DNA of 64,000 nt from Patescibacteria group bacterium (lineage in GTDB: Bacteria; Patescibacteriota; Microgenomatia; UBA8517), in the NCBI GenBank assembly GCA_041480845.1, contig JBGPAU010000001.1:5382-69381 (forward strand), read 5' to 3'. Position numbers and translations under genes: made by a program. Below, in pieces: positions 6,680 to 52,739 of the stretch (within the stretch, counting starts at the first letter, position 1; the number at the start of each line of letters is the position of its first letter). Below the pieces are notes generated by a model. It was not told the origin of the DNA, did not search any database, and saw nothing but the letters and a program-made list of their open reading frames with translations.

Positions 6680-6812
6680 ATTTACTCACCCCGCTTCTTC
6701 AGGGCAGAAGTAGCCTGAATGTAAAGGAAGAACCAATTGAAGTCAAGTGGCTATTTGTTTAGAGAGTGTACATAGCTTGCACCATGTCTAAAATTATGCA
6801 ATGATCATTTAA

Positions 6813-7223
6813 ATGAATATAACCTCAAACATTAAAGGACAATTGGCTGTAAGTAAAACCGAACTTAGAGCATTGGAATTAGGATTTTTACCCTCCAGGC
6901 CGCTCTTTGATACAAGATACGACTTGATTATTGATGATCACGAATCTTTGGTTCGTGTACAAATTAAGTATGCTGACGGGAAATCTGCAAATAGTACTGG
7001 AGTTGTTGTAACAAAATTGGAATATATTGACAGGCAAAAGAAAACTTTTACATATAGGGATGAGGAGGTAGATGCCTTAATTGTGTATATCCCGAAAGTT
7101 GACAAACTGTGTTATATACCCAAAAAGCTGTTTATTGGGAAAAGAAAATTAAATATTCGAATTTCAAAATCCAAAAATAACCAGAAAAAAGGCATAATTG
7201 CGGCAGAAGACTATTACTGGTAG
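6813..7223 (+). CDS. Hypothetical 136-aa protein, possibly with a PD-(D/E)xK-like nuclease fold. Lies immediately upstream of the intron-containing tRNA-Asp.
   Basis: Intact ORF, basic C-terminus. D...EVD...K spacing (RDEEVDALIVYIPK) is weakly reminiscent of a restriction-endonuclease-like fold. Confidence 0.3.
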   Translation: MNITSNIKGQLAVSKTELRALELGFLPSRPLFDTRYDLIIDDHESLVRVQIKYADGKSANSTGVVVTKLEYIDRQKKTFTYRDEEVDALIVYIPKVDKLCYIPKKLFIGKRKLNIRISKSKNNQKKGIIAAEDYYW

Positions 7224-7226
7224 AAT
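7198..7226 (+). promoter_or_regulatory. Sigma70-like promoter for tRNA-Asp: TTGCGG, 17-nt spacer, TAGAAT.
   Basis: The hexamers put +1 about 8 nt before the tRNA 5' end. Confidence 0.35.
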
Positions 7227-7234
7227 ACGCATGT

Positions 7235-7524
7235 GGGGTCGTAGCTCAATGGCTAGAGCGCTTCCCTGTCAAATGTGGCAGCGCCCCGGTGTGAATTGGG
7301 GTGTAAAACCAGGCTAATTCGGGGAACATCCGGAGTTTATCGAAGGACAATCCCGAGCTAAATTTCTAGATAACGTTTTGGGCTGTAAGTCCTGAGCGAA
7401 GTCGAAGGATAAATGTGTAGAGACTATATACCTGGCTCCTTTTAAAGGATGATGAGATAGTCCAAACTTTTTGAAATAAGAAGGAGCACGGAAGAGGTTG
7501 CGAGTCCGAATCTCGTCGACCCCG
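7235..7524 (+). tRNA. tRNA-Asp (anticodon GUC) interrupted by a group I intron. Exon 1 is 7235-7269, exon 2 is 7487-7524.
   Basis: The 5' half (GGGGUCG-UA-GCUCAAUGGCUAGAGC-G-CUUCC-CUGU) and 3' half (CAC-GGAAG-AGGUU-GCGAG-UCCGAAU-CUCGU-CGACCCC-G) assemble into a canonical cloverleaf with anticodon loop CUGUCAC. Confidence 0.75.
7270..7486 (+). ncRNA. Group I self-splicing intron (about 217 nt) in the tRNA-Asp anticodon loop, inserted between nt 35 and 36.
   Basis: 5' exon ends in U; intron ends in G. Guide sequence GUGGCAG near the intron 5' end pairs with 5' exon CUGU (P1) and with 3' exon CAC (P10). P-like AAUUGGGG, Q-like AAUCCCGAG, R-like GUAGAGACUAUA and S-like GAGAUAGUCC elements are present. 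Confidence 0.7.
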
Positions 7525-7539
7525 CCCACATTTAAAGGA

Positions 7540-7860
7540 ATGGAATCTTTTAAACCAAGATGTCATCGCACAGTTGGGGAGGTTATGGAGATAGCCAATA
7601 CAGGATACGCCTCAAAAGTATCTGAGTGTATTCTAAATGGGGATTTAGCTCAGCTCCCCGATGAAGAAGCTCAAGGTATTCTTCGATTAGCGATTACCAA
7701 AGCCAGGTCATATTCGGAGGATATGGTGGTTCCGATTACACAGCCAGGTTTTGAAATCGAATATAATTTTAGACAAAGACAAACCGAGCGTTTAGACACG
7801 TTGGATTTCCACCATGGACCACTTAAAGATATAGTGAAAACCCTTTATAATGATGGTTGA
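7540..7860 (+). CDS. Hypothetical protein (106 aa).
   Basis: ORF with AAAGGA upstream of ATG. It overlaps the next gene by 4 bp (ATGA). Start chosen after the tRNA 3' exon. Confidence 0.35.
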   Translation: MESFKPRCHRTVGEVMEIANTGYASKVSECILNGDLAQLPDEEAQGILRLAITKARSYSEDMVVPITQPGFEIEYNFRQRQTERLDTLDFHHGPLKDIVKTLYNDG

Positions 7861-20769: not shown

Positions 20770-20805
20770 TTGTTCTTTTACTTTTCGTATGCGGGTGTAG
20801 CTTAT

Positions 20806-20880
20806 AGGCTGGTGGCTCAGTCCGGTTAGAGCGCCGCAGTTTAAATGCGGAGGTCGGAGGTTCAAGTCCTTCCCAGCCTA
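20806..20880 (+). tRNA. Class I tRNA with anticodon UUA (ochre-suppressor-like; derived from tRNA-Lys or similar).
   Basis: Acceptor AGGCUGG/CCAGCCU, D-arm GCUCAGUCCGGUUAGAGC, anticodon arm CCGCA-GUUUAAA-UGCGG (positions 34-36 = UUA), 5-nt variable loop, T-arm GGAGG-UUCAAGU-CCUUC. Confidence 0.5.
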
Positions 20881-20881
20881 T

Positions 20882-52568: not shown

Positions 52569-52623
52569 TGTGTCCCTGGACAGAATCGAACTGTCATCTC
52601 CTCCTTAGAAGGGAGATGCTCTA
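52569..52623 (-). repeat. Orphan 55-nt direct copy of the 3' two-thirds of tRNA-Arg(UCU) (3' end through anticodon arm), 97 bp beyond the intact gene.
   Basis: Identical to 52666-52720. Confidence 0.7.
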
Positions 52624-52667
52624 CCTCGTTGGACGCGGCAAGCTACGCTTATCCGTTGACCTCGCTG

Positions 52668-52739
52668 TGTCCCTGGACAGAATCGAACTGTCATCTCCTC
52701 CTTAGAAGGGAGATGCTCTATCCGTTGAGCTACAGGGAC
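52668..52739 (-). tRNA. tRNA-Arg (anticodon UCU).
   Basis: Acceptor GUCCCUG, anticodon arm UCUCC-CUUCUAA-GGAGG, T-arm GACAG-UUCGAUU-CUGUC. Confidence 0.8.

What the first reader, a model, noticed from the sequence alone, without database searches (positions are those of the whole stretch)
7235..7527. tRNA-Asp(GUC) split by a group I intron in the anticodon loop
The intron (7270-7486) separates a canonical tRNA-Asp 5' half ending ...CUUCC-CUGU from a 3' half starting CAC-GGAAG... The spliced anticodon loop is CUGUCAC, the classic tRNA-Asp loop.

Group I hallmarks are all readable. The 5' exon ends in U and the intron ends in G. An internal guide GUGGCAG sits 8 nt into the intron; its GCAG pairs with exon CUGU (P1, with U.G at the splice site) and its GUG pairs with 3' exon CAC (P10). 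P (AAUUGGGG), Q (AAUCCCGAG), R (UAGAGACUAUA) and S (GAGAUAGUCC) core elements are present in the right order.

The classic bacterial tRNA hosts of group I introns are Leu(UAA), fMet, Arg(CCU) and Ile(CAU). I do not recall an Asp host, and the insertion between anticodon nucleotides 35 and 36 is unusual.
Basis: partly seen in the sequence, partly recalled or inferred. Interest (0 to 1): 0.72.

Follow-up and report, generated by a model that had tools for sequence, protein, structure and literature searches.

The report
Group I intron splitting tRNA-Asp
A self-splicing group I intron really does split the only tRNA-Asp gene in this Patescibacteria (Woesebacteria-like) window between anticodon bases 35 and 36; this intron type was published and shown to splice in 2025-26, but the intact homing-endonuclease-like gene directly in front of the tRNA has not been described.

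Summary
Window 7270-7486 is a 217-nt group I intron (Rfam RF00028, 54.7 bits, threshold 50). It lies inside tRNA-Asp(GUC), between nucleotides 35 and 36. P1, the U before the 5' splice site and the terminal G are invariant in 92 homologous introns. P3 and the hairpins P2, P5, P6, P8 and P9 are supported by compensatory changes.

It is not new. Nakagawa et al. (mSystems 2026) described this 35/36 tRNA-Asn/Asp intron lineage in Patescibacteria. They showed in vitro self-splicing of a homologue that is 76% identical to this gene across exons plus intron.

The true P4 strand is at 7319-7324.

What that paper does not mention is the ORF at 6813-7223, which ends 11 nt before the tRNA. It is a free-standing relative of the tRNA-fMet intron endonuclease I-Ssp6803I.
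- It precedes tRNA-Asp in all 15 Patescibacteria species found through the protein, with or without the intron.
- It never precedes tRNA-Asn genes carrying the same intron lineage (0/40, against 10/27 for Asp).
- It is intact in 27/27 loci and under strong purifying selection.
- It is patchily lost, and at least three independent deletions left remnants.

Its DNA target is unknown.

The parts
6750..7212 (+). Endonuclease cassette of about 460 nt, absent from the closest relatives. It is inserted in the spacer of the tRNA-Asp promoter.
   Evidence: Alignment of the window with seven HE-less syntenic loci shows one clean indel. Both flanks are conserved...GTCAAGTGG on the left and ...TGGTAGAATACGCATGT on the right.
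6813..7223 (+). Free-standing PD-(D/E)XK endonuclease gene (136 aa) of the I-Ssp6803I family.
   Evidence: Pfam PF11645 at 74.9 bits, cut-off 26.1. PDB 2OST by sequence, E 1.5e-6, and by fold, Foldseek E 1.2e-5, the top hit. The YDL and VQxK motifs are invariant in 22 homologues. The ORF is intact in 27/27 loci with dN/dS of 0.04-0.15.
6767..6794 (+). Candidate promoter for the endonuclease gene (TGTACA-16-TAAAAT).
   Evidence: Consensus scan, 9 of 12 matches. The number of hits is not above the shuffle expectation, so this is weak.
7198..7226 (+). Inferred tRNA-Asp promoter: TTGCGG (7198-7203), a 17-nt spacer, then the extended -10 TGgTAGAAT (7218-7226). It overlaps the last codons and the stop codon of the endonuclease gene.
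   Evidence: Read from the sequence. TGGTA(A/G)AAT lies 8-11 nt before the tRNA in HE-less relatives as well. Three independent HE deletions kept exactly this 3' stretch. It falls below the scan tool's threshold. This is an inference.
7235..7269 (+). tRNA-Asp 5' exon (nt 1-35), ending CUGU at U35.
   Evidence: ARAGORN on the spliced and the native sequence. Identical or near-identical 5' exons occur in 43 homologous loci.
7270..7486 (+). Group I intron, 217 nt, with no ORF.
   Evidence: Rfam RF00028 at 54.7 bits. Homologues score 68-90 bits. It is 76% identical, over exons plus intron, to the experimentally self-splicing tRNA-Asp gene of GCA_001029755.1.
7266..7281 (+). P1 hairpin: exon C7266-U7269 plus intron C7270 pair with G7277-G7281. 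U7269.G7278 is the wobble pair at the splice site.
   Evidence: Read from the sequence. RNAalifold recovers 5 pairs. Exon CUGU and guide GCAG are invariant in 92 introns.
7275..7277 (+). P10 guide GUG, complementary to the 3' exon CAC (7487-7489).
   Evidence: The guide is GUG in 34 of 43 Asp-hosted introns. The nucleotide opposite exon position +3 is G in 79% of Asp hosts (+3 = C) and U in 53% of Asn hosts (+3 = A). Support is modest.
7283..7302 (+). P2 hairpin: an 8-bp stem capped by the GNRA tetraloop GUGA.
   Evidence: Independent per-sequence folds of 8 introns all form an equivalent hairpin from different sequences. Five form a perfect 8-bp stem and the other three a weaker or interrupted one. 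Several pairs are compensatory.
7309..7313 (+). P3 5' strand, CCAGG.
   Evidence: It pairs with 7431-7435. P3 is fully complementary in 68 of 69 unique introns. Two pairs covary: C-G/U-A at 27:38 and at 59:9.
7319..7356 (+). P4 (UCGGGG 7319-7324 with UCCCGA 7351-7356) enclosing P5 (UCC 7329-7331 with GGA 7344-7346).
   Evidence: Rfam alignment. RNAalifold recovers P4, which is invariant, and P5, which has compensatory changes. Per-sequence folds agree.
7357..7416 (+). P6 region with an extended hairpin, longer here than in most relatives.
   Evidence: Per-sequence folds give a hairpin at this position in all 8 introns, and in all 26 distinct segments tested.
7422..7427 (+).
   Evidence: It pairs with AUAGUC at 7457-7462. 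Found by the Rfam alignment and RNAalifold. The helix is invariant.
7431..7435 (+). P3 3' strand, CCUGG.
   Evidence: See the P3 5' strand entry.
7437..7449 (+). P8 hairpin.
   Evidence: Hairpins form in 28 of 28 distinct sequences, with mean z of -5.1 against shuffles. Several pairs are compensatory.
7457..7462 (+).
7467..7484 (+). P9 hairpin. Most relatives cap it with a GAAA tetraloop.
   Evidence: with U-A/A-U and U-A/C-G exchanges.
7486..7486 (+). Terminal guanosine of the intron (omega G).
   Evidence: G at this position in 92 of 92 resolved homologous introns.
7487..7526 (+). tRNA-Asp 3' exon (nt 36-73, ending at the discriminator G7524) plus the encoded CC.
   Evidence: ARAGORN and coordinates. 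Intron-less homologues read CUGU-CAC continuously.

Best explanation
Window 7235-7526 is the functional tRNA-Asp(GUC) gene of a Woesebacteria-like member of the Patescibacteria. A 217-nt ORF-less group I intron (7270-7486) interrupts it between anticodon nucleotides U35 and C36. [quoted passage not shown]

Mechanism, inferred from the standard group I pathway and from the published assay on a homologue:
1. The precursor folds so that exon CUGU pairs with the guide GCAG (P1, with U7269.G7278).
2. A free guanosine bound in P7 attacks after U7269.
3. G7486 then occupies the same site, GUG (7275-7277) aligns the 3' exon CAC (P10), and the exons are ligated into a 73-nt tRNA with loop CUGUCAC.

Immediately upstream lies a cassette of about 460 nt inserted into the tRNA promoter. 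It encodes an intact free-standing endonuclease of the I-Ssp6803I (PF11645) family, and its last codons appear to double as the tRNA promoter. I take this to be a homing-type DNA endonuclease tied to the tRNA-Asp gene. It has been a long-resident companion of this locus and is repeatedly lost. Whether it cuts the intron insertion site is not resolved.

Shown here: the intron's identity, boundaries and fold; the tRNA identity; the endonuclease's family, conservation and linkage. Inferred: splicing of this particular copy, the promoter overlap, and any nuclease target.
For: **Intron**
- Rfam hit above threshold.
- The spliced product is tRNA-Asp, with G73, C38, G10 and a G3-C70 pair rather than G3-U70.
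- Eight intron-less homologues read CUGU-CAC at the predicted junction.
- U(-1), the terminal G and P1 are invariant in 92 introns.
- P3 is complementary in 68 of 69 unique introns, with two covarying pairs.
- P2, P5, P6, P8 and P9 hairpins form from different sequences. RNAalifold finds 15 pairs kept through changes on both sides.
- The core blocks are identical to those of the GCA_001029755.1 tRNA-Asp intron, with 76% overall identity. That intron self-spliced in vitro, and the sequenced product showed a 35/36 junction (PMC13011429).
- The lineage occupies only Asn (about 72 loci) and Asp (35 loci) among 120 metagenome loci.

**Endonuclease**
- Pfam, PDB sequence and fold matches to I-Ssp6803I.
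- It lies directly upstream of tRNA-Asp in 15 of 15 Patescibacteria species loci found through the protein alone.
- It precedes 10 of 27 intron-bearing tRNA-Asp genes and 0 of 40 tRNA-Asn genes (Fisher p = 3e-5).
- It stays attached to the tRNA when the module is inverted between its flanking genes.
- A clean 460-nt indel separates the window from its closest relatives.
- It is intact in 27 of 27 loci, with pN of 0.1-0.2 and pS of 0.65-0.75.
- Remnants of its 3' end remain in three independent HE-less lineages.
Against: - Splicing of this copy was not observed, because no RNA data are available here.
- The Rfam score is only 4.7 bits above threshold, while relatives score 68-90. The window's enlarged P5 and P6 probably account for the difference.
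- P10 support is modest.
- Subgroup IA is taken from the paper and was not tested here.
- No cleavage data exist for the endonuclease.
- Its divergence tracks host divergence (rho 0.77) and its synonymous sites are saturated. This looks more like a vertically kept gene than an actively spreading one.
- Eight of 15 species have the endonuclease next to an intron-less tRNA-Asp. Their anticodon arms include types that elsewhere carry the intron. The intron is therefore not needed for coexistence with the nuclease.
- The promoter reading scores 8 of 12 on consensus, below the scan tool's cut-off.
Confidence: 0.87

Rival explanations
1. Two-part (collaborative or trans) homing. The free-standing endonuclease cuts intron-less tRNA-Asp genes at or near the 35/36 insertion site, as I-Ssp6803I does in tRNA-fMet. 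The ORF-less intron protects its own genome by splitting the target. Endonuclease, exon and intron spread together by double-strand-break repair.
For: - The family precedent is an endonuclease specific for a tRNA anticodon region with a 23-bp pseudo-palindromic target (reference list). The anticodon stem CTTCC/GGAAG offers such symmetry.
- The arrangement matches the published collaborative-homing scheme.
- The HE is specific to tRNA-Asp, not to the intron lineage.
- Intron-bearing tRNA-Asp exons are unusually uniform, with 36 of 42 sharing an identical 26-nt arm. At matched host divergence, I+/I+ pairs share about 92% exon identity and I+/I- pairs about 80%.
Against: - Eight of 15 HE-carrying species have an intron-less tRNA-Asp, including arm types (CTTCC, CCTCC, TCTCC) that elsewhere host the intron.
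- Seventeen of 27 intron-bearing genes lack the HE.
- The HE and the intron's peripheral helices are deeply diverged, so there is no sign of recent joint transfer.
Confidence: 0.27
2. Intron-independent homing. The endonuclease is a free-standing selfish gene whose target is its own empty insertion site or the 5' part of tRNA-Asp. The intron is a separate element that happens to live in the same gene.
For: - All four combinations of HE presence or absence with intron presence or absence occur.
- The insertion is precise, at one position in the promoter spacer.
- The HE is always immediately 5' of the tRNA in both orientations of the module.
- 9-nt tRNA 5' fragments ending at the same nucleotide occur in L073/L085 and in L099. 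They may be repair scars.
Against: - The promoter spacer is only moderately conserved, which makes it a poor homing target.
- No recent transfer is visible.
- Every HE-less locus that gives direct evidence shows loss by deletion rather than an unoccupied site.
Confidence: 0.28
3. Domesticated or entrenched nuclease. The gene no longer homes. It is kept because the host benefits, or because its 3' end now carries the promoter of the single-copy tRNA-Asp gene.
For: - It has been under strong purifying selection over long divergence, it is intact in 27 of 27 loci, and it co-diverges with PolX.
- Independent deletions retain exactly the last 9-11 codons next to the tRNA.
Against: - Promoter entrenchment explains retention of only about 30 nt, not of the whole ORF.
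- The gene is dispensable, since it is lost in every host sub-clade.
- No host function is known for this family.
Confidence: 0.2
4. The intron is a decayed, non-splicing relic and this tRNA-Asp copy is a pseudogene.
For: The Rfam score is close to threshold. P5 and P6 are expanded relative to homologues.
Against: - Every core helix is intact, and the catalytic-core blocks are identical to those of a proven self-splicing homologue.
- The exons are a perfect tRNA-Asp.
- There is no other tRNA-Asp in the window.
- The published survey found these to be the sole Asp genes in the genomes it tested.
Confidence: 0.04
5. The splice sites lie 1-2 nt away, and the product is a different tRNA such as tRNA-Ala.
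For: ARAGORN labels three homologous loci tRNA-Ala(UGC), with the intron two bases earlier. Shifting the window's junction by -1 gives anticodon GGC.
Against: - The shifted sites violate the U(-1)/terminal-G rule.
- The acceptor stem has G3-C70, not the G3-U70 pair that marks alanine tRNAs (established knowledge).
- Intron-less homologues are tRNA-Asp.
- The paper documents this exact mis-annotation and sequenced the Asp product of a homologue.
Confidence: 0.01

Closest known systems
tRNA-Asp(GUC) 35/36 group I intron of Patescibacteria (Microgenomatia genome GCA_001029755.1; Nakagawa et al., mSystems 2026, PMC13011429)
   Same: Same host tRNA, same insertion site, same exon junction (CUGU|CAC) and same guide GCAG. 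The P3-P4 and P7 core blocks are identical. Identity over exons plus intron is 76%. That copy self-splices in vitro.
   Different: The window's intron has longer P5 and P6 and a different P2 sequence. The paper does not report any neighbouring endonuclease. It infers limited mobility because the introns carry no internal HEG.
tRNA-Asn(GUU) 35/36 group I introns of Patescibacteria (same paper)
   Same: Same intron lineage. An exact 26-base core pattern (two blocks of 17 and 9 specified bases) retrieves both hosts. P1 is the same.
   Different: The host tRNA and the 3' exon (UAA...) differ. Some copies carry an internal HNH endonuclease gene (L097). None has the upstream PF11645 gene (0/40). Their anticodon arms are much more varied.
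Cyanobacterial tRNA-fMet intron encoding I-Ssp6803I
   Same: A group I intron in a tRNA anticodon loop is associated with a PD-(D/E)XK endonuclease of the same Pfam family and fold. That enzyme targets the anticodon region of its tRNA gene.
   Different: There the endonuclease gene lies inside the intron, and the intron sits at 33/34 of tRNA-fMet. Here the gene is free-standing and upstream, the host is tRNA-Asp and the site is 35/36. Sequence identity is only about 20-23%.
Collaborative (trans) homing in phages: F-CphI with the psbA intron of cyanophage S-PM2; mobE with the T4 nrdB intron
   Same: A free-standing endonuclease gene lies next to a gene that carries an ORF-less or defective group I intron.
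   Different: Those systems are in phage protein-coding genes, use other nuclease families, and have a demonstrated cut at the intron insertion site. Here the setting is a bacterial chromosome and a tRNA gene. The target is unknown, and the nuclease often coexists with an intron-less gene.
Classic bacterial tRNA introns: Leu(UAA) at 34/35 and Arg(CCU) at 36/37 (positions as listed in PMC13011429), Ile(CAU) after the anticodon (from memory); subgroup IC3 from memory
   Same: [quoted passage not shown]
   Different: The insertion site and host differ. The published subgroup assignment for the 35/36 introns is IA, and no Patescibacteria tRNA intron was assigned to IC. The subgroup was not tested here.

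Membership tests
Group I intron (Rfam RF00028) | Covariance-model score at or above the curated gathering score | tested here: met
   54.7 bits against 50, E 3.9e-11 in the 64-kb window. Homologues score 68-90 bits.
Group I intron (Rfam RF00028) | [quoted passage not shown] | tested here: met
   U7269.G7278. Exon CUGU and guide GCAG are invariant in 92 introns. Because they never vary, they give no covariation evidence.
Group I intron (Rfam RF00028) | Guanosine as the last intron nucleotide | tested here: met
   G7486, and G in 92 of 92 homologues.
Group I intron (Rfam RF00028) | Conserved core P3-P8 and P4-P6 with the P3/P7 pseudoknot, supported by covariation | tested here: met
   P3 is complementary in 68 of 69 unique introns, with two covarying pairs. 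P4 and P7 are found by the CM and by RNAalifold. P5 and P8 show compensatory changes.
Group I intron (Rfam RF00028) | P10 pairing between the guide and the 3' exon | tested here: inconclusive
   A 3-bp GUG/CAC pairing is possible in the window. Host-linked variation at one position is only modest.
Group I intron (Rfam RF00028) | Guanosine-dependent self-splicing | not testable with these tools
   Shown in vitro only for a homologue (PMC13011429).
Patescibacteria 35/36 tRNA-Asn/Asp intron lineage (Nakagawa et al. 2026) | Insertion between anticodon-loop nucleotides 35 and 36 of tRNA-Asn(GUU) or tRNA-Asp(GUC) | tested here: met
   Intron-less alleles define the junction.
Patescibacteria 35/36 tRNA-Asn/Asp intron lineage (Nakagawa et al. 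2026) | Sequence homology to the published members | tested here: met
   76% and 75% identity to the two Microgenomatia tRNA-Asp genes of Table S3, with identical core blocks. Identity to the Paceibacteria one is 58%.
Patescibacteria 35/36 tRNA-Asn/Asp intron lineage (Nakagawa et al. 2026) | Patescibacterial host genome | tested here: met
   The nearest endonuclease homologue (96% identity) and the syntenic loci come from Candidatus Woesebacteria / Patescibacteria MAGs. Three of the records are titled Gammaproteobacteria or Pseudomonadales MAGs. Their gene content matches the Woesebacteria loci, so these are probably mis-binned (inference).
Patescibacteria 35/36 tRNA-Asn/Asp intron lineage (Nakagawa et al. 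2026) | Structural subgroup IA | not tested
   Subgroup covariance models are not available here. The assignment comes from the paper. No P7.1/P7.2 extension is evident in this 217-nt intron.
   The insertion is at 35/36. The paper assigns no Patescibacteria tRNA intron to IC. The subgroup itself was not tested here.
I-Ssp6803I-type PD-(D/E)XK homing endonuclease (Pfam PF11645) | Profile match above the curated cut-off | tested here: met
   74.9 bits against 26.1, E 8e-21, covering 128 of 136 residues.
I-Ssp6803I-type PD-(D/E)XK homing endonuclease (Pfam PF11645) | Same fold as the solved I-Ssp6803I structure (2OST) | tested here: met
   phmmer E 1.5e-6. Foldseek top hit at E 1.2e-5, probability 1.0, TM about 0.5. 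The model is only moderate (pLDDT 67, N-terminal 34 residues poor).
I-Ssp6803I-type PD-(D/E)XK homing endonuclease (Pfam PF11645) | Conserved nuclease motif residues | tested here: met
   The D of YDL and the Q and K of VQxK align with 2OST and are invariant in 22 homologues. That these are the catalytic residues is from memory and was not verified in a held paper.
I-Ssp6803I-type PD-(D/E)XK homing endonuclease (Pfam PF11645) | Encoded inside a group I intron | tested here: not met
   The ORF lies wholly upstream of the tRNA (6813-7223, with the tRNA starting at 7235). None of 43 tRNA-Asp introns (173-229 nt) contains an ORF.
I-Ssp6803I-type PD-(D/E)XK homing endonuclease (Pfam PF11645) | Site-specific cleavage of the intron-less tRNA gene, and homing | not testable with these tools
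   No biochemical data. The comparative evidence is mixed.
Collaborative (trans) homing system | A free-standing endonuclease gene adjacent to a gene with an ORF-less intron | tested here: met
Collaborative (trans) homing system | [quoted passage not shown] | tested here: inconclusive
   Not directly testable. Eight of 15 HE-carrying species lack the intron, including arm types that host the intron elsewhere. This argues against an obligatory immunity role.

The most novel reading that the evidence does not exclude
The upstream free-standing I-Ssp6803I-family endonuclease and the ORF-less 35/36 intron form a two-part homing system on a bacterial chromosomal tRNA gene. The nuclease cuts uninterrupted tRNA-Asp genes in the anticodon arm, and the intron shields its own genome. 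The pair has persisted for a long time in Woesebacteria-like Patescibacteria, with repeated loss of either partner. This would be the first such system outside phages. It would be a living intermediate on the proposed route to endonuclease-carrying mobile introns. It would also overturn the published inference that these tRNA introns are essentially immobile.
Probability: 0.25. Interest if true: 0.72.

Novelty: new member of a known kind. Interest (0 to 1): 0.42.

Why it matters
The intron itself mainly has practical value. It explains why standard tRNA finders report no tRNA-Asp for this genome, which distorts completeness estimates. It also adds one more member, plus about 120 environmental relatives, to a lineage published in 2025-26.

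The neighbouring endonuclease gene matters more. The published survey looked for homing endonuclease genes only inside the introns and concluded that mobility is limited. Here, an intact and strongly conserved relative of the one known tRNA-intron PD-(D/E)XK homing endonuclease sits directly in front of tRNA-Asp in many Patescibacteria. It does so with or without the intron, and it never accompanies tRNA-Asn. A simple cleavage assay would show whether group I intron mobility, or protection against a resident nuclease, operates in these reduced genomes. [quoted passage not shown]

Tried and rejected
- **Phage origin.** I suspected it because the window holds 19 tRNA genes. blastn of 7150-7600 against the phage collection found nothing, and the neighbouring genes are cellular: GatA/GatB, PolX, an M48 peptidase and LemA.
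- **PolX contig look-up.** The exact PolX product is not on record. The endonuclease look-up worked instead.
- **NCBIfam.** Scans of the endonuclease and of the downstream ORF gave nothing meaningful.
- **I-Ssp6803I structure paper.** PMC1864971 is not held, so the exact target and catalytic residues rest on a review and on memory.
- **Escape mutations.** I tested whether intron-less tRNA-Asp genes next to the endonuclease escape cleavage through altered anticodon stems. I rejected this as a general rule. CTTCC, CCTCC and TCTCC stems each occur both with and without the intron, and L005 differs from the intron-bearing consensus arm at a single distal position.
- **Recent horizontal spread of the endonuclease.** Rejected. 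Its divergence tracks PolX (rho 0.77; one outlier, WIN-L081) and its synonymous sites are saturated.
- **HE-less state as simply ancestral.** Partly rejected. Three lineages keep 3' remnants of the ORF. For the window's own clade (the L072 type) I could not decide between a clean empty site and an old deletion.
- **P10 covariation between Asp and Asn hosts.** Only modest support.
- **Published genomes.** The two published Microgenomatia tRNA-Asp introns are not among my loci, so their endonuclease state remains unknown.
Full report
**1. The observation**

- A 35-nt tRNA 5' half ends ...GCGCUUCC-CUGU at 7269.
- A 217-nt insert runs from 7270 to 7486 and ends in G.
- A tRNA 3' half starts CAC-GGAAG at 7487 and runs to the discriminator G7524.

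Joining the halves gives a canonical tRNA-Asp(GUC) with anticodon loop CUGUCAC. It carries G73, C38 and G10, which fit aspartate identity. It has a G3-C70 pair rather than the G3-U70 pair that marks alanine tRNAs (read from the sequence, plus established tRNA identity rules).

ARAGORN in default mode lists 18 tRNAs in the window and no Asp.

Rfam's group I model matches 7254-7483 at 54.7 bits, against a gathering score of 50. The E-value is 3.9e-11 for the whole window, and it is the only intron hit.

**2. Splice sites**

The dinucleotide CA occurs at both borders, so three junctions give the same product. ARAGORN's intron mode picks the one 2 nt downstream. Only 7269|7270 and 7486|7487 put a U before the 5' splice site and a G at the intron end.

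I fetched 17 loci through the neighbouring protein. Eight of them hold an uninterrupted tRNA-Asp that reads CUGU-CAC continuously. Seven hold a homologous intron at the same place.

In 92 resolved homologous introns, the last four exon bases are CUGU, the guide is GCAG and the last intron base is G, without exception.

**3. Fold**

The Rfam alignment places P1 to P9 in the usual order. I tested the fold without relying on one alignment.
- I folded each variable segment separately in eight introns. Every segment forms a hairpin at the same position from a different sequence. P2 is typically an 8-bp stem capped by a GNRA tetraloop. P9 is usually capped by GAAA.
- Across up to 28 distinct versions of each segment, the hairpins are much more stable than shuffled controls.
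- P3, the long-range helix that defines the core, is fully complementary in 68 of 69 unique introns. Two pairs switch between C-G and U-A, at 27:38 and at 59:9.
- RNAalifold on the eight-sequence alignment independently recovers P1, P2, P4, P5, P7, P8 and P9. Fifteen pairs are kept through changes on both sides.
- P10 (GUG 7275-7277 with CAC 7487-7489) is possible, but its comparative support is only modest.

AAUUGGGG (7294-7301) is the 3' strand of P2. The P4 strand that pairs with Q is UCGGGG at 7319-7324.

**4. It is already known**

[quoted passage not shown] The paper reports the following.
- ARAGORN and tFind mis-call them as Thr or Ala through a 2-nt shift. I saw this too.
- The tRNA-Asp intron of GCA_001029755.1 self-splices in vitro, the sequenced product shows excision at 35/36, and a terminal G-to-C mutant is blocked.
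- 25 of 28 introns at 35/36 were assigned to subgroup IA, and no Patescibacteria tRNA intron to IC.

The paper's Table S3 gives the sequences. The window's gene is 76% identical to the experimentally spliced one. The P3-P4 and P7 blocks are identical, and the differences lie in the peripheral hairpins.

The window therefore holds a new member of a published, experimentally validated lineage.

After resolving the hosts, 35 are tRNA-Asp, about 72 are tRNA-Asn and 13 are cut by contig ends. No other host appears.

**5. The surroundings: an endonuclease gene the paper does not mention**

The ORF at 6813-7223 ends 11 nt before the tRNA.
- It matches Pfam PF11645 (E 8e-21).
- It matches the I-Ssp6803I crystal structure 2OST by sequence (E 1.5e-6).
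- A moderate-confidence model matches 2OST by fold, as the top Foldseek hit (E 1.2e-5).

I-Ssp6803I is the PD-(D/E)XK homing endonuclease encoded in the cyanobacterial tRNA-fMet intron. It is a tetramer that recognises a 23-bp pseudo-palindromic target (PMC3384342). [quoted passage not shown]

The published Patescibacteria survey searched for endonuclease genes only inside introns. It concluded that most tRNA introns lack them, so horizontal transfer is limited. It contains no mention of free-standing or neighbouring nucleases. Nothing else in the searchable library reports one.

**6. How the endonuclease is distributed**

The protein has at least 185 relatives. The best 120 are nearly all 136 aa long, 63-100% identical, and come from Woesebacteria or Patescibacteria sources.

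In all 15 Patescibacteria species loci found through the protein alone, the gene lies 14-50 nt upstream of tRNA-Asp(GUC) and points the same way. Seven of these tRNAs carry the intron and eight do not.

Going the other way, the gene precedes 10 of the 27 intron-bearing tRNA-Asp genes that have enough upstream sequence. It precedes 0 of 40 tRNA-Asn genes with the same intron lineage (Fisher p = 3e-5). The gene is therefore tied to tRNA-Asp, not to the intron.

Two Acidobacteriota homologues (43-45% identity) lie next to tRNA-Ala(GGC) and a tRNA 3' fragment. This hints at a wider link between this family and tRNA genes.

**7. Locus dynamics**

The tRNA-Asp gene sits between a LysM gene and a PolX-LemA-M48 block in most relatives. 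The (endonuclease-)tRNA module occurs in both orientations between them.

The window's closest relatives by flanking proteins (L072, L057, L107, L080; 80-90% identity) carry the intron but not the endonuclease. Alignment shows one clean indel of about 460 nt, at 6750-7212.

The right edge falls in TGGTAGAAT. This is the last Trp codon and the stop codon of the ORF. It is also an extended -10-like element 8 nt before the tRNA start, and the HE-less relatives keep it. With TTGCGG at 7198-7203, the tRNA promoter appears to lie inside the 3' end of the ORF. That is an inference, and it scores below the scan tool's threshold.

Supporting it, three independent HE-less lineages (L073/L085, L048, L047) retain exactly the last 9-11 codons (...IIAAEEYYW*...GIIFAKDYIW*...FAKNYYW*) in front of the tRNA. 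The gene has therefore been lost by deletion at least three times.

Endonuclease presence and module orientation are both interspersed through every host sub-clade.

**8. Is the endonuclease selfish, or kept?**

- All 27 ORFs are intact. Non-synonymous divergence is 0.1-0.2 while synonymous sites are near saturation (0.65-0.75), giving dN/dS of about 0.04-0.15.
- Pairwise identity of the endonuclease tracks that of PolX (Spearman 0.77). Only one clear outlier appears, WIN-L081 at 65% against 80%.

This is the signature of a long-resident, functionally constrained gene that is occasionally deleted. It is not the signature of a recent invader or a decaying relic.

**9. What the endonuclease might cut**

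Collaborative homing is attractive. [quoted passage not shown] The family precedent and the symmetric anticodon stem both fit.

Two facts argue against it as a general rule.
- Eight of 15 endonuclease-carrying species have no intron.
- Their anticodon arms include the same types (CTTCC, CCTCC, TCTCC) that host the intron elsewhere.

An intron-independent target is equally compatible with the data. It could be the empty promoter site or the tRNA 5' region, where two lineages show 9-nt tRNA fragments ending at the same nucleotide. So is domestication.

One observation remains unexplained. Intron-bearing tRNA-Asp exons are unusually uniform, with 36 of 42 sharing an identical 26-nt arm. At matched host divergence, exon identity is about 92% between intron-bearing pairs and about 80% in pairs that include an intron-less gene. 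The same intron lineage in tRNA-Asn sits in at least 12 different arms. The pairs are not independent, so I treat this only as a lead.

**10. Verdict**

One core element was mislocated, and the novelty has been overtaken by publication. The intron is a new member of a known, experimentally validated kind.

The free-standing I-Ssp6803I-family endonuclease cassette in the tRNA-Asp promoter is, as far as the held literature shows, unreported. It is the part that deserves an experiment.

Noticed in passing
window 20805-20881 (+): A well-formed tRNA (Rfam 66.8 bits) has the anticodon loop GUUUAAA, so its anticodon UUA would read the stop codon UAA. TAA nevertheless ends 35 of 54 long ORFs in the window. 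The gene sits 36 nt after tRNA-Cys, and its closest paralogue in the window is only weakly similar.
   Followed up: partly
window 52579-52634 (-): An exact copy of the 3' ~53 nt (TAGAGC...GGGACAC) of tRNA-Arg(UCU) (52667-52739) lies about 30 nt downstream of the full gene. It looks like a partial tandem duplication or an att-like repeat.
   Followed up: partly
window 1-64000: tRNA density is very high. The window holds 19 tRNA genes in 64 kb, scattered singly and in small clusters among ordinary cellular genes. This would be a large share of the tRNA set of a small Patescibacteria genome.
   Followed up: no
window 7498-7860 (+), more likely starting at 7540 or 7585: A small ORF lies between tRNA-Asp and PolX. 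Gene callers extend it over the tRNA 3' exon. It has no Pfam or NCBIfam match, and homologues (39-44% identity) occur at the same position in only a few relatives (L057, L107, L113).
   Followed up: partly
L015 3887-4430 and L016 (Pyrinomonadaceae MAGs): A 43-45% identical homologue of the endonuclease lies 18 nt after a complete tRNA-Ala(GGC). It is followed at once by an orphan tRNA 3' fragment (AAGCGGTCAGGGGTTCGATCCCGCTCGGCTCCA). The family therefore seems linked to tRNA genes outside Patescibacteria as well.
   Followed up: partly
L073/L085 and L099, 30-60 nt upstream of tRNA-Asp: A 9-nt copy of the tRNA-Asp 5' end (GGGGTCGTA) precedes the real gene. It ends at the same nucleotide in L073/L085 and in the more distant L099, followed by unrelated sequence that begins AG(C)AGATAG. 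It may be a repair scar.
   Followed up: no
L001, L005, L008, L011, L013, L014, L048, L081, L120, L121, L125 compared with the window: The (endonuclease-)tRNA-Asp module is inverted relative to the flanking LysM and PolX-LemA-M48 genes in many relatives. The two orientations are interspersed on the host tree, which implies repeated inversion of a segment of 0.4-0.9 kb.
   Followed up: partly
L097 (tRNA-Asn, 501-nt intron): One tRNA-Asn member of the same intron lineage carries an insertion with coding potential in its 5' part. This agrees with the intron-encoded HNH genes reported for tRNA-Asn introns.
   Followed up: no
L002, L003, L006, L012 (record titles): Four loci with typical Woesebacteria gene content and synteny come from MAGs titled 'uncultured Gammaproteobacteria' or 'Pseudomonadales'. 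These labels are probably binning or labelling errors in the source records.
   Followed up: no
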